This document shows positions 51,186-64,000 of a DNA stretch of 64,000 bases, piece by piece (position 1 is the stretch's first letter; every line of letters starts with the position of its first letter). Below the pieces are notes generated by a model. It searched no databases and had not been told where the DNA came from. It saw only the letters and a program-made list of their open reading frames with translations. A program made the position numbers and the translations under genes. Location of the stretch: assembly GCA_965232115.1 (NCBI GenBank), contig OZ246958.1:52481-116480 (forward strand). Reading direction: 5' to 3'. The DNA comes from Candidatus Poribacteria bacterium (lineage in GTDB: Bacteria; Poribacteria; WGA-4E; WGA-3G).

Positions 51186-52259
51186 ATGAACAACTTTAAC
51201 TTCATCGACCTCTTTGCTGGCATAGGCGGGATTCGCATTCCTTATGAAAAGTTAGGTGGAATCTGTGTGTTTAGTTCTGAATGGGACAAATACGCCCAGC
51301 AAACCTACACGCATAACTTTGGTGAAATACCTGCTGGCGATATTACTAAGATCGATGAAACTGACATTCCAGACCACGATATTCTATTGGCAGGTTTTCC
51401 GTGTCAGCCGTTCAGCATTATTGGGGATAAACAAGGCTTTGAAGACACGCGTGGCACACTGTTTTTCGACATCACTCGGATTTTGAAGCAGAAACAGCCG
51501 AGTGCGTTCCTTCTTGAAAATGTTAAGCAGCTGCTCACACATGACAAGGGACAAACCTTCGCGGTCATACAAGAACAATTATCACGATTGGGTTACACTA
51601 CTTACCACAAGGTGTTGAATGCGCTTGACTTCGGACTGCCACAGAAACGGGAAAGAATTTTCATCGTCGGGTTTCGCGAACCGATAGCATTTGATTTCCC
51701 GAAGCCTGTCGGCGTGTACAAACGGCTCTCAGAAATACTGGAACCTGACGAAGACATCGAACCGAGTTTATTTGCATCAGAACGTATCCAAAGATCGCGA
51801 CGCGAGAAGTGTAAAGGCACACCCTTCTTCCCCTCTATCTGGCACGAAAACAAAGGTGGTAATATTTCGGTGTTACCCTTTTCGTGCGCCTTAAGAGCTG
51901 GTGCCTCCTACAACTATCTTTTGGTAAATGGGGTCCGGCGACTTTCTGGTAGAGAACTGCTGCGCTTACAAGGATTTCCTGAAGACTTTAAAATTGTAGG
52001 AAATATGATGCAGGTTAGAAAACAGACTGGAAACAGTGTCGCTATTCCGGTCGTTCACGCGATTGCTGAAAAAATGTTGCAGGCATTGCAACAACGCAAA
52101 CCGATGATACCACTTGCTGAACAATTGCTTCTTTTTGAAAATAGAATTAATGCTTTCGCAAACGAGATAAAGGTTGAGTTTCCTTCAACCGATCCAGAAT
52201 TTACTGATTTCTTCAATACCCGCGGGTATTATTACTCAACATCTACTGACTTTTGGTAA
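51186..52259 (+). CDS. dcm: DNA (cytosine-5) methyltransferase
   Basis: Motif I DLFAGIGG, IV GFPCQPFS, VI ENV, VIII QKRERIFIVG, X GNSVAIPV. Confidence 0.9.
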   Translation: MNNFNFIDLFAGIGGIRIPYEKLGGICVFSSEWDKYAQQTYTHNFGEIPAGDITKIDETDIPDHDILLAGFPCQPFSIIGDKQGFEDTRGTLFFDITRILKQKQPSAFLLENVKQLLTHDKGQTFAVIQEQLSRLGYTTYHKVLNALDFGLPQKRERIFIVGFREPIAFDFPKPVGVYKRLSEILEPDEDIEPSLFASERIQRSRREKCKGTPFFPSIWHENKGGNISVLPFSCALRAGASYNYLLVNGVRRLSGRELLRLQGFPEDFKIVGNMMQVRKQTGNSVAIPVVHAIAEKMLQALQQRKPMIPLAEQLLLFENRINAFANEIKVEFPSTDPEFTDFFNTRGYYYSTSTDFW

Positions 52260-52320
52260 GTTTAAATTCCGTCATCGGAGAGTAAAAAAACGATTTTAAC
52301 GGCATACAGATCCCCATAGC

Positions 52321-52375
52321 GGTTGGAGTTAACCAAAAAACATCGTGAAACGTAGTGGAACGATGCCCAGGAGCC
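52321..52375 (+). repeat. Conserved pre-start element, copy C
   Basis: GGTTGGAGTTAACCAAAAAACATCGTGAAACGTAGTGGAACGATGCCCAGGAGCC is about 85% identical to copy B over 55 nt. It ends 13 nt before the vWA gene ATG. Confidence 0.75.
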
Positions 52376-52387
52376 TATAATAAAAAA

Positions 52388-53368
52388 ATGAAGTCAAAAT
52401 CCAGTAAAGCCTTACTCATTTCAGTTTTATTACACTTCGGTGTCGGGTTGATCGGATTCTTTTATTGGTTCGGTACAAACCCGCAGCGAAACACTGACAG
52501 CATCAACGCATTGCTTATCGCGGAAGAAAAACCGAAAGTTAGGCGTGTGCAACGACGGAAACGCGTACAAATGACACAGAAAAGGACCCGCGATACCAAT
52601 CAACCGCGACTGAAAATCCTTACGAGTAATCAGCCCGCTACGACTCGCGGTGTCGTTTCCGCTGCAGAACCAGCACCCTTCCAACCGTTCGACATGGATA
52701 ATTTAGGTGAACCCGTTGGACCCACAACAACAACGGTTGAATTTGACAATACACCACGTGTGCAAAGGGTTGTTGAACGTCCTTCCAGGAAACGACCGAA
52801 GACCCAAGAACGCCCCAAAAGTAGGTTAGTGCGGTTCATTGAGGTACAAGAAGGACCGCAACGCATCGTCTACTGCATCGACCTCTCTACGAGCATGCAA
52901 AACCTGCCACCGCACAAACTCAAGCGAGTTATAGACCTCATGCGAGATTCACTCACCTTCCTTGAATTGCATGACAGTTTCAATATCGTGGCATTTAGTG
53001 CAGAATTAGTCGTCTACCAAGAAGGTTTCATCCCTATAGATGAGCAGACAGTTGCGGCATCTTCAAACTATCTCGCTGACATCCAATCTCAAATCCATAC
53101 AGACGGCACCGACCACGACATGCTAACGGCATTGACAGAGATTGCAAAGACTGCACCCACGATTGTTGTCCTCTTTAGCGATGGTATTCCCACGACAATC
53201 GAAGGTCCCAATCTCACACTCGTCGGGCAACACGCTGCGGGAAACGGTCGTATTTTCGCTATGGGGACCGGAATGGCACCTAATTTCCCGGGGGCAGTGA
53301 TGCTGAAGCAACTCGCTACCGTCAGTGAAGGCGACCTCTGGCTGGTGGATAGAAGTAGAATTAGATAA
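52388..53368 (+). CDS. Membrane-anchored vWA domain protein with a TonB-like N-terminus
   Basis: Start at MKSKSSKALLISVLLHFG. Basic/Pro linker. MIDAS motif CIDLSTSM. The preceding MERCPGA codons are repeat-derived. Confidence 0.7.
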   Translation: MKSKSSKALLISVLLHFGVGLIGFFYWFGTNPQRNTDSINALLIAEEKPKVRRVQRRKRVQMTQKRTRDTNQPRLKILTSNQPATTRGVVSAAEPAPFQPFDMDNLGEPVGPTTTTVEFDNTPRVQRVVERPSRKRPKTQERPKSRLVRFIEVQEGPQRIVYCIDLSTSMQNLPPHKLKRVIDLMRDSLTFLELHDSFNIVAFSAELVVYQEGFIPIDEQTVAASSNYLADIQSQIHTDGTDHDMLTALTEIAKTAPTIVVLFSDGIPTTIEGPNLTLVGQHAAGNGRIFAMGTGMAPNFPGAVMLKQLATVSEGDLWLVDRSRIR

Positions 53369-53380
53369 GAGGAAATTGGC

Positions 53381-55153
53381 ATGCAGCAAGCCGTGCTGAC
53401 ACGTGCGGAAGAGATCGCCAAAGGTCTCTATCCACATCAGATAGAAGGAGTCGCCTTCCTGCTGGGTCGCCAGCGTGCACTCCTTGCCGATGATATGGGA
53501 CTCGGGAAGACCCGACAATCCGTCATCGCAATGGTTGAGGCAGAAGCAGAAGGCCCGTATCTTGTGATTTGTCCTGCCTCTGTCAAACGGAACTGGTCAC
53601 GTGAAATCCAACTCGTTCTCCCGAAAGCCGAACCCACCATCGTCGGACCTGGACCCCTCCCTTCAACCGACTGCCGAGATTGGGTCATTATCAATTATGA
53701 AATTCTTGGTAAACATCTCGAAGGACTGCTCGCCTTTGAATGGAAAGGCGTTGTCTTTGATGAAGCGCACTACTTGAAAAATCACCAGAGCAAACGCAGT
53801 CGGAACGCCGCCAAATTGGTGAAATCCATTCAGCATGAACCGATCGTCCACGCGCTAACCGGTACGCCGATGACTAACCGGCCTCGCGACCTTTTCCCGC
53901 TCTTACAATTGATGAATCATCCGTTGGGTAAAAGCTTCCTCAGCTTCGCCAAACGCTATTGTGATGCTTATCAGGGAGCATACGGACTCGTGGCAGACGG
54001 CGCAAGCAATATTGAGGAATTAACCGTTCAACTCCACGGGGTGATGCTGCGCCGGACCAAAAACGAGGTGTTAGATCTCCCACCCAAAGTCCGAACATGG
54101 CTGGATGTCGAGCTCCATCCCTACGCGGTTCAACACTTCAATAACGCGGTCCGAGAGTTCTTGACGAAATTTGACGCGCCTGAACCCATTGAAGATGTAA
54201 CAGAAAATACGGAGCGTCGGCAGGCGGTTGGTCGGTTGACGACAGCCCGCCGAAAACTCGCCTTTGCCAAGTGCAGGCAGACCATTAAGTTCGTCGAAAA
54301 CGCCTTGGAACAGGGAGAAAAGGTTATTCTGTTTACCGCTTTCCTCAATACGTTGGAGCGTTTTCACAAGCATTTCGGTGACCAAGCCGTCTACGTCTCA
54401 GGTGAGGTGCCAGCAGAGGAACGGCAAAACTGTGTGGATCGGTTTCAAAACGATGAAAACGTTAGACTCTTCATTGCCAATATGCACGTTGCAGGTGTAG
54501 GCATCAATCTAACGGCTGGGCGGCAGGTCGTCTTCAACGATTTAGACTGGGTACCAGCGAACCATTGGCAGGCAGAGGATCGCGCCTATCGTATCGGGCA
54601 GACTGGGACCGTTAACGTCACCTATATGATTGCACGTGGCACAGTAGACGAATTCGTCAAGACTGTGTTAGAAACGAAAGCCTCACTGATGGATGCCCTC
54701 GTTGAAGGCACGTTGTTAATATCTGACGCAGATGGTGCGCTTCAACCCGATGTTCTCAGTGAACTTAAGCGGATGATGAACGCGCTCTCTGTTGATACCG
54801 ACGCGGTCGAGGAATCGCAGCTGCTGAATGTCCTCCAAAAAGCGAGTGATGCTTATCTTGAAGAGAACGCTGCACACCTCAATGAAGCGACTCGTAAACA
54901 ACTGCGTCCGTATTCCGAAGAAGCTATCCGCACCCTCGCGCAAGTCCTCGCCGGTCCTGAGCGGAGCACCTATCATGCCGAGAGTTCGTCCCAAAAAGGT
55001 AAGTTTTATACGCTGGAAGTGGTCGGCGTAGATGTGACGTGTGATTGTCCGGGGTTCACACACCGCGGTAGTTGCCGACACGTCCGTCCTCTGAAATCCG
55101 CACTTGTCGCAGGGAAACCGCTGCCGAAAGGCTATAAGCAAGTTCCATCCTAA
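53381..55153 (+). CDS. SNF2-family helicase with a C-terminal SWIM zinc finger
   Basis: Motifs LYPHQ..GV.FL, DDMGLGKT and DEAHYLKN, helicase C motifs, C-terminal CDCPGF...GSCRH (CxCxnCxH). Confidence 0.85.
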   Translation: MQQAVLTRAEEIAKGLYPHQIEGVAFLLGRQRALLADDMGLGKTRQSVIAMVEAEAEGPYLVICPASVKRNWSREIQLVLPKAEPTIVGPGPLPSTDCRDWVIINYEILGKHLEGLLAFEWKGVVFDEAHYLKNHQSKRSRNAAKLVKSIQHEPIVHALTGTPMTNRPRDLFPLLQLMNHPLGKSFLSFAKRYCDAYQGAYGLVADGASNIEELTVQLHGVMLRRTKNEVLDLPPKVRTWLDVELHPYAVQHFNNAVREFLTKFDAPEPIEDVTENTERRQAVGRLTTARRKLAFAKCRQTIKFVENALEQGEKVILFTAFLNTLERFHKHFGDQAVYVSGEVPAEERQNCVDRFQNDENVRLFIANMHVAGVGINLTAGRQVVFNDLDWVPANHWQAEDRAYRIGQTGTVNVTYMIARGTVDEFVKTVLETKASLMDALVEGTLLISDADGALQPDVLSELKRMMNALSVDTDAVEESQLLNVLQKASDAYLEENAAHLNEATRKQLRPYSEEAIRTLAQVLAGPERSTYHAESSSQKGKFYTLEVVGVDVTCDCPGFTHRGSCRHVRPLKSALVAGKPLPKGYKQVPS

Positions 55154-55223
55154 GTAACTTAGTCATTTTTGATGAACAGCTCTCTTTTTTCGTTGTTCTC
55201 TCTTTTTGTTCCAAATTTTCTGC

Positions 55224-55252
55224 TTGACATCTACCTAAAAATTCGCTAAAAT
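55224..55252 (+). promoter_or_regulatory. Consensus sigma70 promoter TTGACA - 17 nt - TAAAAT
   Basis: Read directly. 30 nt upstream of the LamG start. CTTGACATCTA is shared with the promoter at 63616. Confidence 0.65.
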
Positions 55253-55282
55253 CAACCTAAATCAACACACGGAGGCGGACCG

Positions 55283-56068
55283 ATGAAACTAACTATAAGC
55301 GTAATCGTCTTGCTCTGTTGCCTGTTACCGATAGCAACGCAGGCAGAACTACCCCTTGATGACCTTGCTCTCTATATGTCCTTTGACGACATCCAAGGCA
55401 ACACAGTTATGGACGGTTCAGAGAATGGAAATGACGGCACGATTATGAAGGCATCCGTTGCAAAAGGTAAAGGGAAGTATGGCGATGCCATGGAATTCGA
55501 AGGTGGAGATAACCATGTCTTGATTAAGAGCTCAAACTCGCTCTCAATTGCGGATGAAGTCACGATTTCCGCGTGGGTCAACTGGAACGATGCACCTGGC
55601 AACGGTTGGTTGTGCATCATGGCAAACGGATCACAAGGCGGACCGTGGGAAAACTACGGACTCTTTGTTAACCGTGGCAGTCGCTACTTCTATTTTACGC
55701 TCTCTATAGGTGGCGAAGGTGCACACGTGGTGATGAATTCTGGCAACGGTACGACTGAACCTGAAAAATGGACCCACTGTGTCTGTGTCTATGATGGCAA
55801 AGACGCTAGCATCTATATTGACGGTGATCTGATAAATTCAGCACCGCATGGCGGCAAATTGGTTGCCGGAGATCAGGATTTGCGGCTCGGTCACCGCGGC
55901 GGAAGCGGACACTGGTATAACGGCTTACTTGATGATGTCGCTGTGTTCTCAGTCGCCTTAGATGAGGATCAGGTTAAAGAAGCGAGCGGTAGCATTGAAG
56001 AAGCACTTGCTGTTCAGGCGCGTGGTAAACTGACAACCGCCTGGGGCAAAATGAAGATAGGAAAATAG
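55283..56068 (+). CDS. Secreted LamG domain protein (paralogue of 26634-27416)
   Basis: Signal peptide. Motifs DGSENGNDG and LLDDVAVF. C-terminal GKLTTAWGKMK tail. Confidence 0.75.
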   Translation: MKLTISVIVLLCCLLPIATQAELPLDDLALYMSFDDIQGNTVMDGSENGNDGTIMKASVAKGKGKYGDAMEFEGGDNHVLIKSSNSLSIADEVTISAWVNWNDAPGNGWLCIMANGSQGGPWENYGLFVNRGSRYFYFTLSIGGEGAHVVMNSGNGTTEPEKWTHCVCVYDGKDASIYIDGDLINSAPHGGKLVAGDQDLRLGHRGGSGHWYNGLLDDVAVFSVALDEDQVKEASGSIEEALAVQARGKLTTAWGKMKIGK

Positions 56069-56083
56069 CCTGACTTCTCAGGT

Positions 56084-57013
56084 GTGGTTTGTGTTTTTTG
56101 TATGAGTGAAGTAAGAAAGATTTCTGACATAGGAAATGGACGCGGTAAACCGTATCGGAAGTTTTCGATACGGTTTCTGCTTTACTTTCTCTGTATCTTC
56201 CTATACTTTGCCTGTTCTGAAGAGGAACTGGCACAATCGCCTGAAGGCATGGTGCTGATTCCAGCGGGCACGTTCCAGATGGGTAGCACTACAGGCGATG
56301 TGGACGAAGCACCTGTACATACTGTCGAACTTGATGCGTTTTATATTGATCAACACGAAGTAACGAATGCTGAGTATAAGGCATTCGTTACTGCAACGGG
56401 ACACCCGGATCCACGAGGCATCGGTTATACTGCTGTTTACGAACGCCTCAAACACGATTACCAACCGTGGCAAGACCCGGATTTCAATCACCGGAATCAG
56501 CCTGTCACAACGGTGACATGGTTTGATGCTGTCGCCTACTGCGAATGGGCAGGTAAGCGGTTACCGACGGAAGCGGAATGGGAAAAAGCAGCACGCGGTG
56601 GCTTGGAAGGCGCGCGCTACCCTTGGGGAGACGCTGAACCTAATAACACGACTGCTAACTTCGCCGACAGTCAAACGGAATTTGAATGGCGGAGCGCAGA
56701 CGTAAACGACGGACATCTTTTCACTGCACCTGTCGGAACGTTTTCACCCAACGGCTACGGTCTATTTGACATGGCAGGAAACGTATGGGAATGGTGCGCC
56801 GATTGGTATAGCTCGACTTACTACAGCGATGCGGAAGATGTGGAGAATCCACGTAGAAATCCAAAGGGACCCGATACGGGTGAACGGCGTGTTTTGCGCG
56901 GTGGAACTTGGTATCGCGCTGCACATACCATCCGCAATGCCGAACGCATCAGTGACTACCCAGATAACAGCCTGAACGTCGTCGGTTTTCGGTGCGCGAT
57001 GGATGTTCCTTAA
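56084..57013 (+). CDS. Formylglycine-generating enzyme family protein (SUMF1/FGE-sulfatase domain), probable lipoprotein
   Basis: Motifs MVLIPAGTFQMGS, VTWFDAVAYCEWAGKRLPTEAEWEKAARGG, GNVWEWC and RVLRGG.W. The true start within the first ~10 codons is uncertain. Confidence 0.85.
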   Translation: MVCVFCMSEVRKISDIGNGRGKPYRKFSIRFLLYFLCIFLYFACSEEELAQSPEGMVLIPAGTFQMGSTTGDVDEAPVHTVELDAFYIDQHEVTNAEYKAFVTATGHPDPRGIGYTAVYERLKHDYQPWQDPDFNHRNQPVTTVTWFDAVAYCEWAGKRLPTEAEWEKAARGGLEGARYPWGDAEPNNTTANFADSQTEFEWRSADVNDGHLFTAPVGTFSPNGYGLFDMAGNVWEWCADWYSSTYYSDAEDVENPRRNPKGPDTGERRVLRGGTWYRAAHTIRNAERISDYPDNSLNVVGFRCAMDVP

Positions 57014-57057: not shown

Positions 57058-57891
57058 TCAGTAATTTTTGATGAACAACTCTTTTCCTTTCGCGGCACTC
57101 TCCTTCCGATAATTGTTCATGCCGTATTGTAACGTCCATTCCTGAATCTCCGCAAAATCGAAGAGCTCCCTGATAACAGACGAATCGTCATAAGTAATTA
57201 GCCATCTGTGTGGACATTTCCGCATATTCTCCGCGAATTGCACGTGGTCAAACGCCGTATGCAGTTCGCCTCTCACGCCGTATAGCCTCGACTCCGTTGC
57301 TTTCCAATAAGGTGGGTCGAGAAAGATAAAAACATCTTCCCCATCGTGAAAAAGGGCATCGGTGTAATCACCATTTGTGATTTTGACCTCAGAAAGATAG
57401 GGACAGATGTTTTTCACGCGTTCAATAGAGGACGCTGTGAAACGCTTCTCGTAAGCGGATTGGGAATACCCACCGGAATCTACAATTCCAGAAAAAGTAA
57501 TGCGATTAAGCACGAAAAACCTTACGGCGCGTTGAAACTCGCAGAGCATGTCCCGATTCTGGTTCAGTTTATCTTTTGACTCTGTTAGTTTCTGAAATAA
57601 AGCGCGGCCGTCTGTAGCAGCCGTGTGTGTTTCTGTGAGTGTTTCAATCAAGTCTGGCGCGTTGTCTCGGACCTGTTTCCAGAAGCAGAAAAGATCGTAG
57701 TTGAGATCGTTAATCCAGTAGGACTTGATGCGATTCTGAAAGAGGCTACGGATTGCAAAAAAGACAGAACCACCACCGACAAAAGGCTCGCGAAATTCGG
57801 ATATATTCATCGGAATCAGCGGCAGAATTTGTTTCAATGCCCTTGATTTACCGCCGGGGTATCGGAGTGGACTTTTTGCCAATTTAGTCAT
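57058..57891 (-). CDS. Dam-like (D12 class) N6-adenine DNA methyltransferase
   Basis: Motifs LRYPGGKS, EPFVGGGSVFF and FLDPPYW. Overlaps the upstream endonuclease gene by 8 nt. Confidence 0.85.
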   Translation of the reverse strand: MTKLAKSPLRYPGGKSRALKQILPLIPMNISEFREPFVGGGSVFFAIRSLFQNRIKSYWINDLNYDLFCFWKQVRDNAPDLIETLTETHTAATDGRALFQKLTESKDKLNQNRDMLCEFQRAVRFFVLNRITFSGIVDSGGYSQSAYEKRFTASSIERVKNICPYLSEVKITNGDYTDALFHDGEDVFIFLDPPYWKATESRLYGVRGELHTAFDHVQFAENMRKCPHRWLITYDDSSVIRELFDFAEIQEWTLQYGMNNYRKESAAKGKELFIKNY

Positions 57892-59029
57892 GACGACCCG
57901 TTATCCATATTTGTAGTTTGTGATTTTGACTCGCTTCTTGATTAAGCAAAATGAGTCTCTTTTGATAAGTCTGGGTTAAGCGGTTTTGTACAGAAAAATT
58001 AAATACATCCTCTGTGGAACAAGGGAAAAATAGATTACCCGTAAAATCACCTGTTAGCTTTAATCGGGTCATAAACTGTGCATTTCCCTTCCCATCAACT
58101 GTCACTTCTTCCATATTCGCAAAGAGGATCAGTTTAAACAAACCATCTTTGATGTCATTTTCAGATGGAAATTTTCCGGTACTACTATTCTTGGATTCTT
58201 GTATGACTAATTGGGCACCCTCCCAATAAATCTCATCAGCGGTTAAATAATACTGTCCGCCGAGATAGTTTGAAATTTGGAAAACACCTTTCGTATTTTC
58301 TTCGAGGGACTCTAAGACATGTGTCGTTACAGATTCCCTGTGGGCAGCTTCATACGAGCGCGGAAGAGTTGCCTCTTTGAAAGATGCTAAACTAAAACGA
58401 CCATCTGCCTTAAATTTTTCAAGCGTCTGCAAGTGGTTTTTCGGACTGTGAACAGCAACGTTTTCCTTCCGAGATATTTTCTTGTATCCATCAACTGCGT
58501 TTAGATAAATTGCCTCGAAGTCTTTCTCAAAGTGTGTAGTGTTCCAGTGTAACGCTGTCATCTGATATTGACTTATTTCAACCAATTTTTCACGCACGCT
58601 TTCAACGTTCAGAATCTGATTGGTAATTCGGTCGGTCGTCCCAGGTTTCCTTTCCGCATCTTCGTACCATGCTAAGACGATGTAAATGTTCAACAGATTC
58701 ATCCATGAAAATGTAATGAAATTAATCCTGTCATTGTTTAGGGTCCCAGCTCCCTCATCTTTGATGATTGGAATAATTGTAACTTTTTTTGTATTGAAAT
58801 GAAACGTGTTATAAATCCTTGCAAAAGGATAGGTGCGCGTTCGTTTAGGTGAAACCCATTTTGAAAAGGCGAGATTATTCCCTGGTGTGCCCAAATCAAT
58901 CAGTCCGGACGCCTGCACTTCGTTCACATCAAATTGTGCTATATTATATTCTGTAAATTTCTCTGGATTGAGAGAGGGTCTGTATTTCACATCTCTTATG
59001 AAACCTTTTAAATAGAGGGTCGCCATCAA
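57884..59029 (-). CDS. Putative type II restriction endonuclease (PD-(D/E)xK)
   Basis: 381 aa with no recognisable family. C-terminal half has ...TADEIYWEGAQLVIQESK (D...ExK). Translationally coupled to the MTase. Confidence 0.5.
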   Translation of the reverse strand: MMATLYLKGFIRDVKYRPSLNPEKFTEYNIAQFDVNEVQASGLIDLGTPGNNLAFSKWVSPKRTRTYPFARIYNTFHFNTKKVTIIPIIKDEGAGTLNNDRINFITFSWMNLLNIYIVLAWYEDAERKPGTTDRITNQILNVESVREKLVEISQYQMTALHWNTTHFEKDFEAIYLNAVDGYKKISRKENVAVHSPKNHLQTLEKFKADGRFSLASFKEATLPRSYEAAHRESVTTHVLESLEENTKGVFQISNYLGGQYYLTADEIYWEGAQLVIQESKNSSTGKFPSENDIKDGLFKLILFANMEEVTVDGKGNAQFMTRLKLTGDFTGNLFFPCSTEDVFNFSVQNRLTQTYQKRLILLNQEASQNHKLQIWITGRHD

Positions 59030-59087
59030 ATGCCTCCACGCAAAAATTCATGGGTGTTCATTCTAAAGTCCTCTTACTATTTTTTTA

Positions 59088-59116
59088 AGTATAGCATGCC
59101 TTACTTTCACTTTCAA
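59088..59116 (-). promoter_or_regulatory. Sigma70 promoter TTGAAA - 17 nt - TATACT for the R-M operon
   Basis: Minus strand: -35 at 59116-59111 and -10 at 59093-59088. A GGAGG RBS lies before the ATG at 59029. Confidence 0.55.
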
Positions 59117-59166
59117 GATGCTGCCAGAAATATCCGATAGAAATTCGCGATTCCTTAACCTTAAAC

Positions 59167-59196
59167 TTGACATGCTTACAAGATTAATGCTATACT
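59167..59196 (+). promoter_or_regulatory. Sigma70 promoter TTGACA - 18 nt - TATACT for the SIR2/pAgo operon
   Basis: Read directly. Divergent from the R-M promoter. Confidence 0.55.
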
Positions 59197-59305
59197 TGCT
59201 TTTAAGAATGATCAGTTTAAGTAGGCTGGTTTGAATCTCTAAAGCTCTTCAAAACACGAGGTTGCAGCCCGAGCATTTATCACGCTAACCTGAGAGGACA
59301 ACATT

Positions 59306-62071
59306 TTGGCACTTCAAATAGCAAATATTGGACGTTTATGTTCGCTATTAATCCGGGGACCAGAGCCAATTTTTCTGTTGGGTGCAGGGACTTCTGTGAA
59401 ATCCGGCATCCCGCTTGCTGGTGAAATGGTTGAAAAAATGGCAAGATGGAGATATTGTCTTGAAAACGGCTTGGATCCGGAAGATCTAAGCCTTCGGCGT
59501 AGCGACTGGTACCCGTGGTTAAAAATGCAGAAGTGGTATTCCGAGGATGGGGAACGAGCAGATAACTATCCTGATGCTATAGAAAATATTCTTCAACCAC
59601 GTCAAACACGAAAAGATTTCTTTTTGGAGATGCTGAACACACAGGTCGAACCGAGCAGTGGGTACAAACATATTACAGAACTTATGGCAAGGAAACGCAT
59701 TCATACTGTCCTCACCACAAACTTTGATACAATTTTGCCAAAGGTTTGCAAGGACAATAAGCAACTTCATCATCTGGAGATCATCCAGACAAAATCTGAC
59801 TATACAAAATTATCAACGAGTCCACAATATCCGCAAATTATTTACCTACACGGTTCTGTCGAACATTACACGGACAAAAACACCATTACTGAAGTAAATG
59901 AGGAACTTGAATCAGATCTTGTCTCAAGATTACTGCCGCTTTTGAGAGATCATCCGTTGATCGTGATAGGGTATCGGGGGGCGGAACCTTCTGTCATGGA
60001 ACATCTTCTCATCAATCACGCCGAGGCAGCAGACAACTATCGAAATGGAATCTATTGGTGCACACGGAACTATAAGGAAAATCGGGACGACAGTTTAACT
60101 CACTTAGTGCATAAACTTGCTGAAAAAATCCAAGGAAACCTTCAGGTCGTCCCCATTGATGGATTTGACGAAGTGATGGCTGCCCTATGGCAGTACATTC
60201 GTAAGCACGAACCGGATTATCATCAAACGCAAATCACAGCAGTTTCTGAACCATCACCAGAACTCCCATACGATTTAAAGATGCTCACTGAATCCAGTCT
60301 TGACGATTTTGACTGGCCGTCCATGAGAGTTCGGCTTTTACAGTACTGCGACAGGACAGGTATCCGAGTGCCTCCCGTTAGGGACAACAATTGGTTTCTT
60401 CAGCTATTGTGTGATCGAGATCTCGCTACACGTAGAAAAGAAGAAGATATTTTTCCTACGGTTGGAGGCTACTTACTCTTTGCCGATATACCGCAGAACC
60501 ATATCCAAACCGCTCAAGTTATCGTTCGCTTAAAAGGAGATCCGCAGTGGATTGAAAACAATTTTGATGTTTCAGATGATGCTGAATCGGACGGAGAAAA
60601 GATAAAGGAAGTAATTGAGGGAAACCTGTGGATGCAGCTTGACGTAATATATGAGTTATTCTCTCGCGTCAATCGATCATTTCTGCTAAAGGAAGGACGC
60701 TACTCAAAATATGTGTACCCCTATCCTCCGAATGCCTTACGGGAAATAGTTGTCAACGCTCTCGTTCACCGTGACTACGAGAAAAACGAGCCAATCTTGA
60801 TAGAGATTGCGGAAACCTATATTCGTGTACGTAACCCGGGGGGATTGGTTGAGGATGTAATAGAGCAGATGATAGGTACATCTCAAGAGGAGATAAAAAA
60901 CGTGTTTGAAACAGAAATCAAAAAGGGGACACGCGGCATTCGCGGCTATCGGAACCCTGTTGTGGCCGACTTGTTCTATGGTGCAGAAGAAATGGAGAAG
61001 GCCGGTTCAGGGCTAGCAGATGTATGGCAGGAAAGCGAGAAAAACAAAAATGAAGTGAACTTTGGTCCTATTGATAACAACACAACTTTTGAGATAACGA
61101 TCTCCCGCCGCCCGGAAGTTGTGGACACGATTACGGGAACTGCCTCTAGTAGCGATAATTTCACTCGTTACGCCAGCAATCTCCTCGAGGTGGTTAGCCT
61201 CCCTACTGCCATTTGGCACGCTAGAACCAATATGTGGAAAGCAAAGGAGGTATGGGAAAAAACTGGTGCAGATTGGTTACCTCCATTTGTGACTCATAGT
61301 GGACAAATTTTCACGTTCCGTGATCTTTCAACATCGGCTAATCCGCTCTATGCTGTGATCGACACCAACGATATAGGAAAGATGACTGTTGAGGAATTCA
61401 CCGATGCTTATGGAGAACGGCGTTTCGTGTGGATCCTCAACGAATGTTTTTATAGGCACCTTGAAGCGCAAGGACTCTGGGTCGATAAAGACCGTATGCG
61501 CGCATATTTTCCTCGAACTGACGAGGGACATCGAAGAATCAAGTACCAAGCACGTTTGCGTCGGGCAACCCGGACAGTAGTGAAACAGATAAAGAACTAT
61601 TGGGAGCATAAGTCCTTTCGGTTTCGGTTTGAACGATTTGGTGATGTTTGGACGCTTGTTATGCTGCCGGGATACGTTTTCACAACCGATGGTAAATCAG
61701 ATCTTCTGGAAGGAAAGGAAGTTAACAGGCTTTCTACAAAGCGTGAAGGACGAGACTACAATAATGTTGTCCACAATGACCTTGTGTTCTGGACGTGGGT
61801 GCTTTCGGGGGGAAAACACAGTATCTTTGTACTTAATACAGATCCAATGAGCACTCAAATTGACGTGATTTCACCAGACAAGATTCACAAACAGAACGGA
61901 AATCAGATTCGTATCAGATCAAACTTATCAGCGACAGTTGCGCCTGACTTCGGAGATGATGCATGGGGCATAAAACAGGTTGAGAAATTGGAGGAAAACC
62001 AATTAGCACAGTTGGAGTCAGAATTTTCACAGGCGGTTTCGCAATTGGAGAAGATAGAAGATGTTGATTGA
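59306..62071 (+). CDS. SIR2-like domain protein with a central Schlafen/AlbA_2-like + HATPase_c_4 (RecG-C-like) module and a ~300-aa C-terminal region of APAZ size
   Basis: TTG start after GAGAGGA. N-terminal SIR2_2 motifs FLLGAGTSVKSGIP, TTNFD and YLHGS. Central TVGGYLLFAD and REIVVNALVHRDY...IRVRNPGGL...YRNPVVADLF. C-terminus unassigned. Confidence 0.7.
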   Translation: MALQIANIGRLCSLLIRGPEPIFLLGAGTSVKSGIPLAGEMVEKMARWRYCLENGLDPEDLSLRRSDWYPWLKMQKWYSEDGERADNYPDAIENILQPRQTRKDFFLEMLNTQVEPSSGYKHITELMARKRIHTVLTTNFDTILPKVCKDNKQLHHLEIIQTKSDYTKLSTSPQYPQIIYLHGSVEHYTDKNTITEVNEELESDLVSRLLPLLRDHPLIVIGYRGAEPSVMEHLLINHAEAADNYRNGIYWCTRNYKENRDDSLTHLVHKLAEKIQGNLQVVPIDGFDEVMAALWQYIRKHEPDYHQTQITAVSEPSPELPYDLKMLTESSLDDFDWPSMRVRLLQYCDRTGIRVPPVRDNNWFLQLLCDRDLATRRKEEDIFPTVGGYLLFADIPQNHIQTAQVIVRLKGDPQWIENNFDVSDDAESDGEKIKEVIEGNLWMQLDVIYELFSRVNRSFLLKEGRYSKYVYPYPPNALREIVVNALVHRDYEKNEPILIEIAETYIRVRNPGGLVEDVIEQMIGTSQEEIKNVFETEIKKGTRGIRGYRNPVVADLFYGAEEMEKAGSGLADVWQESEKNKNEVNFGPIDNNTTFEITISRRPEVVDTITGTASSSDNFTRYASNLLEVVSLPTAIWHARTNMWKAKEVWEKTGADWLPPFVTHSGQIFTFRDLSTSANPLYAVIDTNDIGKMTVEEFTDAYGERRFVWILNECFYRHLEAQGLWVDKDRMRAYFPRTDEGHRRIKYQARLRRATRTVVKQIKNYWEHKSFRFRFERFGDVWTLVMLPGYVFTTDGKSDLLEGKEVNRLSTKREGRDYNNVVHNDLVFWTWVLSGGKHSIFVLNTDPMSTQIDVISPDKIHKQNGNQIRIRSNLSATVAPDFGDDAWGIKQVEKLEENQLAQLESEFSQAVSQLEKIEDVD

Positions 62072-63542
62072 TATGGAACTCACCCAATTGCCGATACCGA
62101 ATATTGAGTTGGGTTCGCCGGGGACCTTCAAAGATCCAAAAGTAGGACTTACGAAGGCAGGACCCTTTGACCTCCGTTTCGGTGCTACGCGAAAAAAAGA
62201 GATGCGCGTTGGGCTCGTTGGAAACTCTGATATGCTAAAGAAAGCACAACAGTGGCTTGACCGGTGTTGTGCGCCGATTCCCTCTAACATCAAAGATTCT
62301 ACACAACACCTTGATTTTCCTGGGTTTAACGCGGCCTTCCACACCTCACTCCTGTTTGACCGGCAATGGCAAACAGAAATTAATAACGGTATACTTGAAG
62401 TCGTGCTTAAGAAAGATCCGAAATCACGCTTTGAAGCAGTATTGGACATATATACAGATAGTGTAGAGAAATTAGCCGATAACACCAATATTCGCCCCGA
62501 TATTGTCTTATGCTGTCTACCTGATGATGTAGTTCAAACGTGCTGGAGTATCTCAAAATCTTTGACTTCAAGGCAGCGTAGGCTTATCAAGATGCGACAA
62601 GCTGAGCGTGAATCGGGACAACTACTTTTGTTTCAGGACATAGAAGAAACCGAGGGAGACTTGTTGAATCGAGATTTCAGACGGGCATTGAAGGCCCGAG
62701 CAATGAAATTTCGCATGCCAATTCAGATTGGGACCCGTAATTTGTTTGAAAATCAGAACACCAATCAAGATCCTGCGACGCGAGCGTGGAACATGAGCGT
62801 GGGGATCTATTATAAAGGAGGAGGAATACCGTGGCGTTTTAAATCTACTGGCCCAGAAACCTGCTTTGTCGGTATCAGTTTCCACCATTTGAGAACGCCC
62901 CGACAGCATCTCGTCTATTCAAGTTTGGCACAGGCTTTCTCAAGCCGCGGCGAGGGATTCGCTCTTCGCGGCGAGGCTATCCCATGGGACACAGGACAGG
63001 GGCGTAATGTACACCTAACAACAGATCAAGCAGCCAGATTAGCAGGTCAAATTCTTCAGAAATACAATGAACAAACTGATGGAAATCCACAGCGCGTCGT
63101 GCTCCACAAAACATCAAGATTCGACGAGTCTGAGCAAGAAGGCTTTCGACATGGTTTTCGCGATATTCCCATCGTCGAATTAATGAGTATTATGCCTACA
63201 CAGTTTCGACTTTTGACGTATGGAACATATCCACCGAGGAGAGGTACGCTTTGTACTGTGAATAAAACAGCCGCATATCTATTCACCACAGGTTACATGC
63301 CTGAATGGCGAACATACCCTGGGCCTCACATTCCTGCTCCTGTAAGACTTGTAAGCGATGATGATGTTGACATGTATCAGGCCGCCTCAGATATCCTCGG
63401 GCTTGCCCGTATGAATTGGAATACGGCAAGTATGAGCAGTGCCCACCCGGTAACACTCTTCTTTTCTCGACGAGTCGGTGGCATTATGGCAGAAGTGGGA
63501 CCAAACCGTGTACCACATCCTTCCTTCCGCTATTATATATAA
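62061..63542 (+). CDS. Short prokaryotic Argonaute (MID-PIWI), catalytically inactive
   Basis: PIWI motifs AWNMSVGIYYKGGGIPWRF, CFVGISF (Ser where the catalytic Asp is expected), VVLHKTSRF and LARMNWNT. 493 aa with no PAZ or N domain. Overlaps the upstream gene by 11 nt. Confidence 0.8.
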   Translation: MLIDMELTQLPIPNIELGSPGTFKDPKVGLTKAGPFDLRFGATRKKEMRVGLVGNSDMLKKAQQWLDRCCAPIPSNIKDSTQHLDFPGFNAAFHTSLLFDRQWQTEINNGILEVVLKKDPKSRFEAVLDIYTDSVEKLADNTNIRPDIVLCCLPDDVVQTCWSISKSLTSRQRRLIKMRQAERESGQLLLFQDIEETEGDLLNRDFRRALKARAMKFRMPIQIGTRNLFENQNTNQDPATRAWNMSVGIYYKGGGIPWRFKSTGPETCFVGISFHHLRTPRQHLVYSSLAQAFSSRGEGFALRGEAIPWDTGQGRNVHLTTDQAARLAGQILQKYNEQTDGNPQRVVLHKTSRFDESEQEGFRHGFRDIPIVELMSIMPTQFRLLTYGTYPPRRGTLCTVNKTAAYLFTTGYMPEWRTYPGPHIPAPVRLVSDDDVDMYQAASDILGLARMNWNTASMSSAHPVTLFFSRRVGGIMAEVGPNRVPHPSFRYYI

Positions 63543-63615
63543 AACGCAAGATATCTTCTCTCGTACTTATCCCTATTCCTTTCCCGCCCCTGATTCCCCT
63601 TACGCTATTTTCCAC

Positions 63616-63644
63616 TTGACATCTATCCGAAAACCCTCTAAAAT
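63616..63644 (+). promoter_or_regulatory. Consensus sigma70 promoter TTGACA - 17 nt - TAAAAT
   Basis: Read directly. 39 nt upstream of the sulfatase ATG. Confidence 0.65.
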
Positions 63645-63682
63645 GGAAACAGCCAAACCAAAATAGAGAGGAAAATAGAAAC

Positions 63683-64000
63683 ATGCCACAAACTGACGCA
63701 AATCAACCCAATGTTATCGTCTTTTTCACCGACCAGCAGCGATGGGATACCTCCGGCTTGCATGGAAACCCACTCGACCTAACCCCCAATTTCGACCGGA
63801 TGGCACAACGCGGCACACACGTCCATCGCTCTTTTACATGTCAACCCGTCTGTGGACCCGCCCGTTCATGTCTGCAAACTGGACTATACGCGACCCGCAC
63901 AGGATGCTTTCGAAACGGTATCCCGTTGTCCCCAAACCTCAAGACCCTCGCACACCACTTCGGTGAGGCAGGTTACGCCACGGGATACATCGGCAAGTGG
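63683..64000 (+). CDS. Sulfatase, 5' part (runs off the window)
   Basis: Own translation: MPQTDANQPNVIVFFTDQQRWDT...FTCQPVCGPARSCLQTG (C-x-P-x-R). Not in the ORF track because no stop lies within the window. Confidence 0.8.
   Translation, partial: MPQTDANQPNVIVFFTDQQRWDTSGLHGNPLDLTPNFDRMAQRGTHVHRSFTCQPVCGPARSCLQTGLYATRTGCFRNGIPLSPNLKTLAHHFGEAGYATGYIGKW

What the first reader, a model, noticed from the sequence alone, without database searches (positions are those of the whole stretch)
59167..63542. Short pAgo coupled to an extended SIR2 - Schlafen/AlbA_2 - HATPase_c_4 - (APAZ-sized) partner: a non-canonical SPARSA-like system
Seen in sequence. This is a two-gene operon with its own promoter, and the pAgo ATG overlaps the end of the upstream gene by 11 nt. 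The 493-aa protein is MID-PIWI only, with PIWI hallmarks (YYKGGGIPWRF, LARMNWNT). Its catalytic positions are substituted (CFVGISF, LHKTSRF), which is the definition of a short inactive pAgo. Established knowledge: short pAgos work with an APAZ-containing effector such as SIR2-APAZ (SPARSA) or TIR-APAZ (SPARTA), triggering NAD+ depletion on guide-directed target recognition. What is unusual here: the partner is 921 aa. Its first ~300 aa are a SIR2_2-type domain (GAGTS, TTNFD, YLHGS) and its last ~300 aa are of APAZ size. In between sits a ~280-aa module resembling the AlbA_2/Schlafen-like nucleic-acid-binding domain plus the HATPase_c_4/RecG-C-like region (REIVVNALVHRDY..RVRNPGGL..YRNPVVADLF). 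From memory, characterised SIR2-APAZ proteins lack this insert. I cannot tell without a search whether this architecture has been catalogued, and I am not aware that it has been studied experimentally. The operon lies next to an R-M system in an MTase-rich island.
Basis: partly seen in the sequence, partly recalled or inferred. Interest (0 to 1): 0.85.

Follow-up and report, generated by a model that had tools for sequence, protein, structure and literature searches.

The report
Short Argonaute with SIR2-ATPase-APAZ partner
This is an intact two-gene bacterial defence cassette: a catalytically dead short Argonaute and a partner that joins a SIR2 NAD-cleaving domain, a GHKL-type ATPase and the Argonaute-docking APAZ domain. 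The subtype is widespread and already catalogued, but I found no experimental study of it, and it contains no Schlafen domain.

Summary
The two ORFs, their 11-nt overlap, the promoter-like site and all quoted motifs are real. The 493-aa protein is a short pAgo. It matches solved short pAgos over its full length, its guide 5'-end pocket is conserved, and its former catalytic positions are never Asp in 70 relatives. The 921-aa partner is SIR2 (about 18-303), then one GHKL ATPase module (about 319-603), then APAZ (about 621-848), then a variable tail.

1. There is no AlbA_2/Schlafen domain. The insert is only the ATPase half of the "Schlatpase" module (hhalign 99.9% to the GHKL part, 0.7% to the AlbA_2 part; 0 of 48 family members hit PF04326).
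2. The pAgo and APAZ resemble clade S2B systems (SPARHA, SPARDA), not canonical SPARSA. Only the SIR2 head is SPARSA-like.
3. The architecture is already catalogued: a near-full-length PADLOC model, Ryazansky 2018 og_40, and probably Koopal 2022 "DHS-like-APAZ". It occurs in at least seven phyla, always followed by the pAgo.

No experimental study was found. Both the SIR2 catalytic residues and the GHKL ATP-site residues are invariant or nearly so. This suggests a guide-directed NADase whose assembly is controlled by ATP. It is a new member of a known, uncharacterised subtype, of moderate interest.

The parts
59167..59196 (+). Promoter-like site TTGACA-18 nt-TATACT with a TG before the -10
   Evidence: Best site in 58900-64000, 11 of 12 matches. 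Consensus match only. A facing site on the minus strand (59116-59088) could serve the divergent R-M genes.
59292..59298 (+). Shine-Dalgarno GAGAGGA, 7 nt before the TTG start
   Evidence: Read directly from the sequence. An in-frame stop at 59291 excludes an earlier start, and homologues are also about 921 aa.
59306..62071 (+). Partner gene: SIR2-GHKL-APAZ protein, 921 aa
   Evidence: ORF. PADLOC PDLC02402 covers residues 9-911 at 1069 bits. The full-length AF2 model has mean pLDDT 86.4.
59357..60214 (+). SIR2 (DHS-like) NADase domain, residues about 18-303. Cofactor loop GAGTS 26-30; catalytic N139 and H182.
   Evidence: Pfam SIR2_2. Residues 21-301 align with GsSir2 chains 8in8_B/8jkz_A at 3.3e-13, with N139 = GsSir2 N142 and H182 = H186. 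Those residues are shown to be catalytic in PMC11452484. N139 is kept in 48 of 48 and H182 in 47 of 48 family members.
60260..61114 (+). GHKL (Bergerat-fold) ATPase module, residues about 319-603. N-box E480/N484/H488; G1 NPGG 510-513; RN 549-550; G2 K565-x-G567-S-G569; D572.
   Evidence: Pfam HATPase_c_4. AF2 pLDDT 81. Foldseek: 3LMM at 5e-10, then histidine-kinase CA domains and PDHK. hhalign: 319-603 aligns to Schlatpase 129-372, probability 99.9. ATP-site residues are invariant in 48 sequences down to 28% identity.
61166..61849 (+). APAZ domain (the pAgo N-L1-L2 equivalent), residues about 621-848
   Evidence: phmmer: 623-841 to 9om4_A HNH-APAZ at 5.6e-18, plus DREN-APAZ and DUF4365-APAZ chains. 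PADLOC REase-PNTD1-PNTD2 models match 621-846. Foldseek TM 0.70-0.77 to SPARHA/SPARDA APAZ chains. Y818 aligns with SPARHA APAZ Y340, which contacts the target 3' base.
61850..62068 (+). Variable C-terminal tail, residues 849-921, ending in a predicted helix (897-917)
   Evidence: Low pLDDT at 849-864 and 882-895. Poorly conserved. Most non-poribacterial relatives align only to about residue 845.
62061..62071 (+). 11-nt overlap between the end of the partner gene and the pAgo ATG (translational coupling)
   Evidence: A similar overlap (17 nt) is seen in L001.
62061..63542 (+). Short pAgo (MID-PIWI only), 493 aa. MID pocket D205/R207/K211/Q222/K252; former catalytic positions S273 and T351.
   Evidence: PADLOC pAgo_I at 487 bits, covering 5-493. 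Full-length matches to solved short pAgos. In 70 family members K211, Q222 and K252 are invariant, and positions 273 and 351 are never Asp. D205, R207, K211 and I223 align with SPARHA D178, R180, K184 and I196, which bind the guide 5' end.

Best explanation
The locus is a self-contained, horizontally mobile short-pAgo defence cassette of clade S2B type, in a Candidatus Poribacteria genome.

Shown here:
- A catalytically dead MID-PIWI Argonaute is encoded directly after, and overlapping, a partner protein built as SIR2, then GHKL ATPase, then APAZ.
- The SIR2 catalytic Asn/His, the GHKL ATP-binding and hydrolysis residues, and the pAgo guide 5'-phosphate pocket are all conserved across the family.
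- The four-module order is kept in at least seven phyla.

Inferred mechanism:
1. APAZ docks onto the pAgo to form an Argonaute-like heterodimer.
2. The pAgo loads 5'-phosphorylated small guide RNAs, probably with a 5'-A(U) bias as in SPARHA, SPARDA and SPARSA.
3. Pairing with complementary invader ssDNA triggers a conformational change and higher-order assembly.
4. Assembly brings SIR2 domains together, aligns H182 with N139 and switches on NAD+ hydrolysis. The result is growth arrest or death of the infected cell (abortive infection).
5. The GHKL module between effector and sensor most likely acts as an ATP-dependent dimerisation or oligomerisation switch. In the Schlafen-Argonaute RzAgo, the homologous GHKL domain drives ATP-dependent tetramerisation. 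Here it would either license or restrain SIR2 assembly, with hydrolysis (E480) resetting the switch.

My confidence in the identity and architecture is about 0.95. It is about 0.7 for a guide-directed NADase output, and about 0.4-0.5 for the ATP-switch role of the GHKL module.
For: - Architecture.
- Homology to experimentally characterised systems. The SIR2 head aligns with GsSir2, with N139 = N142 and H182 = H186; PMC11452484 shows those residues are catalytic and that tetramerisation aligns H186. The pAgo and APAZ are closest to SPARHA and SPARDA, which use 5'-AU guide RNAs against DNA and assemble on activation (PMC12738770).
- MID residues contacting the guide 5' end in SPARHA are identical here and conserved in 70 relatives.
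- Purifying selection: in 48 members down to 28% identity, N139, E480, N484, H488, G512, R549, N550, G567, G569 and D572 are invariant, and H182 is kept in 47 of 48.
- Operon conservation: in all 82 related loci held at that point, every locus with enough sequence has SIR2, GHKL, APAZ and then pAgo. Variants with extra N-terminal domains keep the pAgo too.
- GHKL role by analogy: in RzAgo, ATP binding by the PF13749 GHKL domain (E314/N318) drives tetramerisation (preprint 10.64898/2026.05.29.728809).
Against: - No experiment exists for this subtype. The NADase output, the guide type and any ATP dependence are all inferred.
- In RzAgo the GHKL domain works together with an adjacent SLFN domain, which is absent here, so the analogy may not transfer.
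- Characterised SPARSA, SPARTA, SPARDA and SPARHA systems assemble without any ATPase, so the GHKL module is not needed for the basic mechanism and could do something else, such as sensing a nucleotide or a phage factor.
- SPARHA's U2-specific D212 falls in an alignment gap, R367 is T389 here, and Y818 is only moderately conserved (26 of 48). Guide and target end preferences may therefore differ.
- Clade placement rests on bit-score ranking against solved structures, not on a phylogeny.
Confidence: 0.6

Rival explanations
1. One reading: the roughly 280-aa insert is a Schlafen/AlbA_2 nucleic-acid-binding (or RNase) domain plus HATPase_c_4. The partner would then carry a second nucleic-acid-directed activity, as in SLFN-pAgo.
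For: [quoted passage not shown] JGI names close homologues 'predicted HTH transcriptional regulator', a generic label. [quoted passage not shown]
Against: - There is no PF04326 hit on residues 301-495 even at E <= 10, and 0 of 48 family members hit it while 48 of 48 hit HATPase_c_4.
- Stand-alone relatives have AlbA_2 at about 13-122, and the insert aligns only after it.
- hhalign gives probability 0.7% for the AlbA_2 part against 99.9-100% for the GHKL part.
- No E(x)4(D/E)xK or SAFAN motif occurs anywhere in the protein.
- No Schlafen structure appears among the top 50 Foldseek hits.
- The 175 aa between the end of SIR2 and E480 equal the RzAgo spacing from the end of SLFN (142) to E314, which leaves no room for a further 120-140-aa domain.
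Confidence: 0.03
2. The GHKL module is a passive structural spacer or dimerisation scaffold that has lost nucleotide dependence. The system would work exactly like SPARSA or SPARTA.
For: All characterised short pAgo systems activate without ATP. The Pfam HATPase_c_4 score is only just above threshold (28.5 bits against a cut-off of 26). The G1 position N510 varies (N27, S18, T3).
Against: The residues that bind Mg-ATP and catalyse hydrolysis in GHKL enzymes (E480, N484, G512, G567, G569, with R549, N550 and D572) are invariant in 48 sequences spanning 28-64% identity and at least seven phyla. That pattern is not expected for a degenerate spacer.
Confidence: 0.15
3. The SIR2 domain is not a bulk NADase. 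It might ADP-ribosylate a target or make a signalling nucleotide, or the real effector might be the ATPase, for example through ATP depletion or kinase-like activity.
For: Relatives stack further enzymatic heads (PNP_UDP_1 phosphorylase, Metallophos, Trypsin_2) in front of SIR2, which suggests nucleotide-processing outputs may be more elaborate. SIR2-family chemistry is versatile (general knowledge).
Against: The closest characterised SIR2 domains (GsSir2, and more distantly ThsA) are NAD+ hydrolases, with the same catalytic Asn/His. GHKL ATPases are slow switches rather than bulk ATP consumers (general knowledge).
Confidence: 0.12
4. The cassette works as part of a composite island with the adjacent R-M system (a Dam-family methyltransferase plus a 381-aa ORF).
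For: The two are divergently arranged around a shared 276-bp intergenic region with facing promoter-like sites. A C5 methyltransferase and an SNF2 helicase lie nearby.
Against: None of the 82 related loci (4-6 kb flanks), including poribacterial ones at 81-86% identity, holds a homologue of the methyltransferase, the 381-aa ORF or the FGE gene. L001 is flanked by metabolic genes. Koopal 2022 found no third conserved partner for short pAgo systems.
Confidence: 0.05

Closest known systems
Clade S2B short pAgo systems: SPARHA (HNH-APAZ + pAgo, PDB 9OM4) and SPARDA (DREN-APAZ + pAgo, PDB 9JSB, 9QBP, 9VX1)
   Same: The pAgo is most similar to these (2.8e-72 and 2.7e-48, aligned over the full length). 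The APAZ is most similar to theirs by sequence and fold. The MID residues that bind the guide 5'-phosphate and 5'-A are the same. The two-gene operon has the partner first.
   Different: The effector is a SIR2 NADase-type domain rather than a nuclease, and a roughly 285-aa GHKL ATPase sits between the effector and APAZ. No such module exists in SPARHA or SPARDA.
SPARSA (clades S1A/S1B; GsSir2/Ago, PDB 8IN8, 8JKZ, 8Y80)
   Same: The SIR2 head is homologous (3.3e-13), with catalytic N and H conserved. The overall logic is SIR2 + APAZ + an inactive short pAgo. The full-length model's best Foldseek hit is the SPARSA SIR2-APAZ chain.
   Different: The partner is 921 aa against about 585 aa, because of the GHKL insert and a tail. 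The APAZ shows no sequence match to the SPARSA APAZ. The pAgo is only distantly related (66 bits against 247 bits for SPARHA).
Catalogued but uncharacterised subtype: PADLOC PDLC02402 / PDLC02418 ('Aga_SIR2-Kinase-PNTD1-PNTD2'); Ryazansky 2018 og_40 and the 13 SIR2 proteins of APAZ group IIb; Koopal 2022 'DHS-like-APAZ' (S2B)
   Same: There is a near-full-length HMM match (residues 9-911, 1069 bits). The domain content and pAgo association match those descriptions.
   Different: Nothing substantive: this locus is a member. The equation with og_40 and with 'DHS-like-APAZ' is my inference from their descriptions, because I could not inspect their sequence lists. The 2018 'Schlafen' label does not correspond to an AlbA_2 domain in this family.
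SLFN-pAgo (RzAgo) and the 'Schlatpase' supradomain (preprint 10.64898/2026.05.29.728809); DIP2311, PDB 3LMM
   Same: The GHKL module is homologous to the PF13749 ATPase half of Schlatpase proteins, with the same ExxxN N-box. It is likewise attached to an Argonaute sensing platform.
   Different: There is no SLFN/AlbA_2 nuclease domain and no HTH. The module is embedded in an APAZ partner of a short pAgo, not fused to a long-B pAgo. The predicted output is NAD+ hydrolysis, not tRNA cleavage.

Membership tests
Short pAgo system (generic) | pAgo consists of MID and PIWI only, with no N or PAZ domain | tested here: met
   The 493-aa protein aligns end to end with solved short pAgos of 471-507 aa. 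PADLOC pAgo_I covers 5-493.
Short pAgo system (generic) | PIWI lacks the DEDX catalytic tetrad | tested here: met
   S273 sits in G-I-S where active PIWI has G-x-D, and T351 sits in H-K-T-S where active PIWI has R-D-G. Neither is ever Asp in 70 family members, and the same substitutions occur in the SPARHA and SPARDA pAgos. Mapping these positions to the tetrad rests on established knowledge of PIWI motifs. I made no direct alignment to an active long pAgo.
Short pAgo system (generic) | An adjacent gene encodes an APAZ domain fused to an effector | tested here: met
   APAZ; SIR2; adjacent, overlapping by 11 nt.
Short pAgo system (generic) | pAgo and the APAZ protein form a heterodimer; guide-dependent target binding activates the effector; defence phenotype | not testable with these tools
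   Needs biochemistry and genetics. No multimer prediction was available.
SPARSA (S1A/S1B) | SIR2 domain with the catalytic Asn/His of GsSir2 (N142/H186) | tested here: met
   N139 and H182 align with them and are kept in 48 of 48 and 47 of 48 members. Their catalytic role is from PMC11452484.
SPARSA (S1A/S1B) | SIR2 fused directly to APAZ (partner about 580 aa, or a fusion with the pAgo) | tested here: not met
   A roughly 285-aa GHKL module lies between them.
SPARSA (S1A/S1B) | pAgo and APAZ belong to the S1 lineage | tested here: not met
   The pAgo scores 66 bits to GsAgo, against 247 (SPARHA), 168 (SPARDA) and 151 (SPARTA). The APAZ gives no sequence hit to the GsSir2 APAZ. This is a bit-score ranking, not a tree.
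Clade S2B short pAgo systems / 'DHS-like-APAZ' subtype | pAgo and APAZ closest to S2B references, with a DHS-like (SIR2-superfamily) head | tested here: met
   A formal phylogeny against the Koopal reference set was not done.
PADLOC Aga_SIR2-PNTD1-PNTD2 (PDLC02402) | Full-length match to the family HMM | tested here: met
   Residues 9-911 match model positions 3-862 of 876 in one stretch, at 1069 bits.
Schlafen / SLFN-APAZ / Schlatpase | SLFN_AlbA_2 domain (PF04326) | tested here: not met
   0 of 48; probability 0.7%.
Schlafen / SLFN-APAZ / Schlatpase | E(x)4(D/E)xK nuclease motif and SAFAN box | tested here: not met
   A regex finds neither anywhere in the 921 aa. The motifs are defined in the preprint.
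Schlafen / SLFN-APAZ / Schlatpase | PF13749 GHKL ATPase half of the supradomain | tested here: met
   48 of 48; probability 99.9-100%.
GHKL ATPases | Bergerat fold | tested here: met
   The AF2 model (pLDDT 81) matches 3LMM, histidine-kinase CA domains, PDHK2 and BCKDK.
GHKL ATPases | N-box Glu/Asn and the G1 and G2 glycine boxes | tested here: met
   E480, N484, G512, G567 and G569 are invariant in 48 sequences.
GHKL ATPases | ATP binding and hydrolysis; nucleotide-dependent dimerisation | not testable with these tools
   Requires purified protein.

The most novel reading that the evidence does not exclude
This family would be the first short-Argonaute defence system whose effector activation is gated by a nucleotide switch. 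In this reading, the GHKL ATPase wedged between SIR2 and APAZ couples ATP binding and hydrolysis to the assembly (or restraint) of the SIR2 NADase oligomer after guide-directed DNA recognition. The system would then integrate invader detection with the cell's energy state. The same SIR2-GHKL-APAZ chassis would also serve as a platform onto which further effector heads (PNP-type phosphorylase, metallophosphoesterase, trypsin-like protease) are stacked.
Probability: 0.4. Interest if true: 0.7.

Novelty: new member of a known kind. Interest (0 to 1): 0.45.

Why it matters
All short-pAgo systems characterised so far (SPARTA, SPARSA, SPARDA, SPARHA) switch on by target-induced oligomerisation alone. 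This subtype keeps an apparently active GHKL ATPase between effector and sensor, across at least seven phyla. That implies an extra, conserved layer of control that nobody has tested.

The recent finding that the homologous GHKL domain drives ATP-dependent tetramerisation in Schlafen-Argonautes gives a concrete, testable hypothesis. Cultured, sequenced hosts carry orthologues (Roseiarcus fermentans DSM 24875, Chitinophaga rhizosphaerae, Pontibacter virosus DSM 100231, Bradyrhizobium spp., Shimia biformata), so experiments are feasible.

The analysis also corrects a label that has been repeated since 2018 ('SIR2-Schlafen-APAZ'). These proteins have the ATPase half of the Schlatpase module but not the Schlafen nuclease. 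For the window itself, the result is ordinary annotation: an intact defence cassette in a poribacterial genome.

Tried and rejected
- **AlbA_2/Schlafen domain in residues 305-470.** I looked for it with Pfam at a permissive threshold, a family-wide Pfam scan, profile-profile comparison, fold search and a motif regex. All were negative, so I rejected it.
- **Pfam and NCBIfam on the pAgo.** Neither gives a significant hit. This is a sensitivity limit of those libraries for short-pAgo PIWI, not evidence against PIWI, because PADLOC and PDB sequence searches are decisive.
- **Functional linkage to the neighbouring R-M genes.** No co-occurrence in 82 related loci, so I rejected it.
- **SIR2-less 'GHKL-APAZ' variants** suggested by 560-660-aa hits. 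P0135 and P0137 are truncated gene calls that start inside SIR2. P0125 is a split arrangement with a separate SIR2 gene and an intervening HTH gene upstream. I found no good evidence for such variants.
- **Looking up the window's own partner protein in the contig index.** Not on record. The host was inferred from the closest loci, all Candidatus Poribacteria.
- **Genome scan with the 48-sequence alignment.** It failed for lack of a conserved 7-10-column stretch and was repeated with a 10-sequence alignment.
- **Intrinsic terminator after the pAgo.** None was found.
- **A residue-level alignment of the pAgo to a catalytically active long pAgo.** The tetrad positions rest on motif knowledge and on identity with the SPARHA and SPARDA pAgos.

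Full report
**Observation.** The window holds two co-directional ORFs: 59306..62071 (921 aa, TTG start) and 62061..63542 (493 aa, ATG start). They overlap by 11 nt. An in-frame TGA at 59291 and a GAGAGGA Shine-Dalgarno 7 nt upstream fix the TTG start, and homologues have the same length. The strongest promoter-like site in 58900-64000 is TTGACA-18-TATACT with an extended -10 TG at 59167-59196, which is the finding's start coordinate. It is only a consensus match, and no intrinsic terminator was found.

**The 493-aa protein.** Pfam and NCBIfam give no significant hit. PADLOC's pAgo_I model covers residues 5-493 at 487 bits. phmmer against the PDB aligns the protein end to end with solved short pAgos: SPARHA 9om4_B (2.8e-72), SPARDA 9jsb_A (2.7e-48) and 9qbp_B, SPARTA 8fex_B (4e-43), and much more weakly the SPARSA pAgo 8in8_C (2.1e-17). 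The SPARHA structure paper names the residues that hold the guide 5'-phosphate and 5'-adenine: D178, R180, K184 and the backbone of I196. Through the alignment these are D205, R207, K211 and I223 here, all identical. In 70 distinct pAgos recovered from related loci, K211, Q222 and K252 are invariant. The positions that carry catalytic Asp in active PIWI domains (S273 in G-I-S, T351 in H-K-T-S) are never Asp.

**The 921-aa partner, ends.** Residues 21-301 align with the SIR2 domain of GsSir2 (8in8_B/8jkz_A, 3.3e-13). N139 falls on N142 and H182 on H186. Those are the residues shown to be catalytic, with H186 aligned only on tetramerisation (PMC11452484). Residues 623-841 align with the APAZ part of the SPARHA HNH-APAZ chain (9om4_A, 5.6e-18) and with DREN- and DUF4365-APAZ chains. 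PADLOC REase-PNTD1-PNTD2 models match the same span. A full-length AlphaFold2 model (mean pLDDT 86.4) superposes this block on APAZ domains of SPARHA, SPARDA and SPARTA (target TM 0.69-0.78, rmsd 2.4-5.5 Å). As a whole it is best matched by the SPARSA SIR2-APAZ chain, with the alignment spanning the insert. Residues 849-921 form a poorly conserved, low-confidence tail.

**The insert.** Pfam finds HATPase_c_4 at 496-597 but no AlbA_2, even when residues 301-495 are scanned alone at E <= 10.
- A search of 1.84 billion representatives with residues 305-620 found same-architecture proteins of about 900 aa. It also found stand-alone 420-480-aa proteins in which the query start aligns to target residues of about 140-180. 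Two of those stand-alone proteins, checked with Pfam, carry SLFN_AlbA_2 at about 13-122, before the matched part.
- Profile-profile comparison settles it. The family's residues 319-603 align to Schlatpase positions 129-372 (probability 99.9%, E 2.6e-37). The AlbA_2 segment alone scores probability 0.7%.
- None of 48 divergent family members hits PF04326, while all 48 hit both SIR2_2 and HATPase_c_4.
- No E(x)4(D/E)xK or SAFAN motif, the Schlafen nuclease signature defined in the 2026 preprint, exists anywhere in the protein.
- An AlphaFold2 model of the insert (pLDDT 81, pTM 0.80) matches 3LMM (DIP2311), then histidine-kinase catalytic domains, PDHK and BCKDK. No Schlafen structure is in the top 50.
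- The 175 residues between the end of SIR2 and the N-box Glu (E480) equal the spacing in RzAgo between the end of its SLFN domain (142) and E314.

The insert is therefore one GHKL ATPase module, the ATPase half of the 'Schlatpase' supradomain, without the Schlafen nuclease and without the HTH.

**Conservation and distribution.** In 48 members down to 28% identity, the invariant residues are N139 (SIR2) and the GHKL ATP-site residues E480, N484, H488, G512, R549, N550, G567, G569 and D572. H182 is kept in 47 of 48. A scan of one genome per GTDB species returned 79 loci from Candidatus Poribacteria (up to 86% identity, so the window is almost certainly poribacterial), Alphaproteobacteria, Acidobacteriota, Bacteroidota, Actinomycetota, Chloroflexota and Verrucomicrobiota, including cultured strains. 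In the 82 related loci held at that point, every locus with enough sequence has SIR2, GHKL and APAZ followed immediately by the pAgo. Flanking genes are not conserved. L001 sits among metabolic genes, and no related locus has homologues of the window's Dam-family methyltransferase, the 381-aa ORF or the FGE gene. The two genes are thus an autonomous, mobile cassette.

**Comparison with what is known.** The architecture is catalogued.
- PADLOC-DB v2 (2023) has a near-full-length model (PDLC02402, 1069 bits over residues 9-911) and a sibling named 'SIR2-Kinase-PNTD1-PNTD2'.
- Koopal 2022 lists 'DHS-like-APAZ' partners in clade S2B.
- The SPARHA paper still calls such S2B effectors uncharacterised.

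The equation of this family with og_40 and with 'DHS-like-APAZ' is my inference from those descriptions. Six full-text searches found no experimental work on an APAZ protein with a GHKL/HATPase module. The only paper holding both 'APAZ' and 'GHKL' is the 2026 SLFN-pAgo preprint, which concerns a different, long-B fusion protein. The library lacks many subscription journals, so absence is not proof. In membership terms, the locus is a short pAgo system of S2B type. It is not a member of SPARSA sensu S1A/S1B: the direct SIR2-APAZ fusion and the S1 lineage were both tested and not met. It is not a Schlafen-containing system either.

**Mechanism.** By homology the most likely operation is as follows.
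1. APAZ and the pAgo form the bilobed sensor.
2. The pAgo binds 5'-phosphorylated guide RNA.
3. Recognition of a complementary DNA target triggers assembly.
4. SIR2 domains come together, which activates NAD+ hydrolysis and leads to abortive infection.

These steps are shown for relatives and inferred here. The invariant ATP-site residues argue that the GHKL module binds and hydrolyses ATP. In RzAgo the homologous domain drives ATP-dependent tetramerisation. I therefore propose that here it acts as an ATP-dependent oligomerisation switch that licenses or restrains SIR2 assembly. This is the least certain step (about 0.4-0.5), because RzAgo's GHKL acts next to a SLFN domain that is absent here, and other short pAgo systems need no ATPase.

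**Verdict.** The locus is a new member of a catalogued but apparently uncharacterised short-pAgo subtype. The useful corrections are GHKL-only rather than Schlafen, S2B rather than SPARSA-with-insert, and already catalogued and widespread rather than new. Interest is moderate (0.45). The unanswered question of what a conserved ATPase does inside a short-pAgo NADase is real and testable, but the system is not a new kind.

Noticed in passing
window 57058-59029 (- strand): A Dam-family D12 N6-adenine methyltransferase (57058-57891; Pfam 2.9e-42, TIGR00571) overlaps by 8 nt with an upstream 381-aa ORF (57884-59029) that has no match in Pfam, NCBIfam or PDB sequences. The ORF is a candidate restriction endonuclease of an undescribed family, transcribed divergently from the pAgo operon.
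   Followed up: partly
window 51186-57013: Upstream genes are a C5 cytosine DNA methyltransferase (51186-52259), a VWA-domain protein (52355-53368), an SNF2-family helicase (53381-55153), a LamG/ConA-like secreted protein (55283-56068) and an FGE-sulfatase (SUMF1-like) protein (56084-57013). Methyltransferases and a helicase are thus mixed with sulfatase-related genes, so the 'island' is not purely defensive.
   Followed up: partly
window 63616-64000: A second strong promoter-like site (TTGACA-17-TAAAAT, 63616-63644) precedes an ORF starting near 63683 (MPQTDANQPNVIVFFTDQQRWDT...). It looks like a sulfatase and runs off the window end.
   Followed up: no
P0129 (L003:5001-8666), P0134, P0160: Family variants carry an extra N-terminal enzymatic domain in front of SIR2-GHKL: PNP_UDP_1 phosphorylase (1221 aa), Metallophos phosphoesterase (1267 aa) or a Trypsin_2 protease (1096 aa). 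The PNP variant is followed by a short pAgo 54% identical to the window's. Its locus also holds a Peptidase_C14-DEAD helicase gene upstream.
   Followed up: partly
L083:1876-7488: In one relative the partner is split. A separate 321-aa SIR2_2 gene is followed by a 182-aa HTH_23/28/32 gene (possibly an insertion-element remnant), then a 662-aa GHKL-APAZ gene, then a 495-aa gene in the pAgo position. The break falls at the SIR2/GHKL domain boundary. An AbiEii gene lies just upstream.
   Followed up: partly
L017 and L065 (both on contig CBDBFT010000001.1): One Candidatus Poribacteria genome carries two diverged copies of the whole cassette (partner 65% and 61% identical to the window's).
   Followed up: no
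P0122 (1169 aa) and P0154 (966 aa): Further relatives have N-terminal extensions of about 258 aa and about 103 aa before SIR2. The 258-aa extension of P0122 has no Pfam annotation; P0154 was not scanned.
   Followed up: no
literature (PMC6299218, og_40): [quoted passage not shown] The proteins examined here have only the GHKL half of the AlbA_2-GHKL supradomain, so the 'Schlafen' label is misleading.
   Followed up: partly
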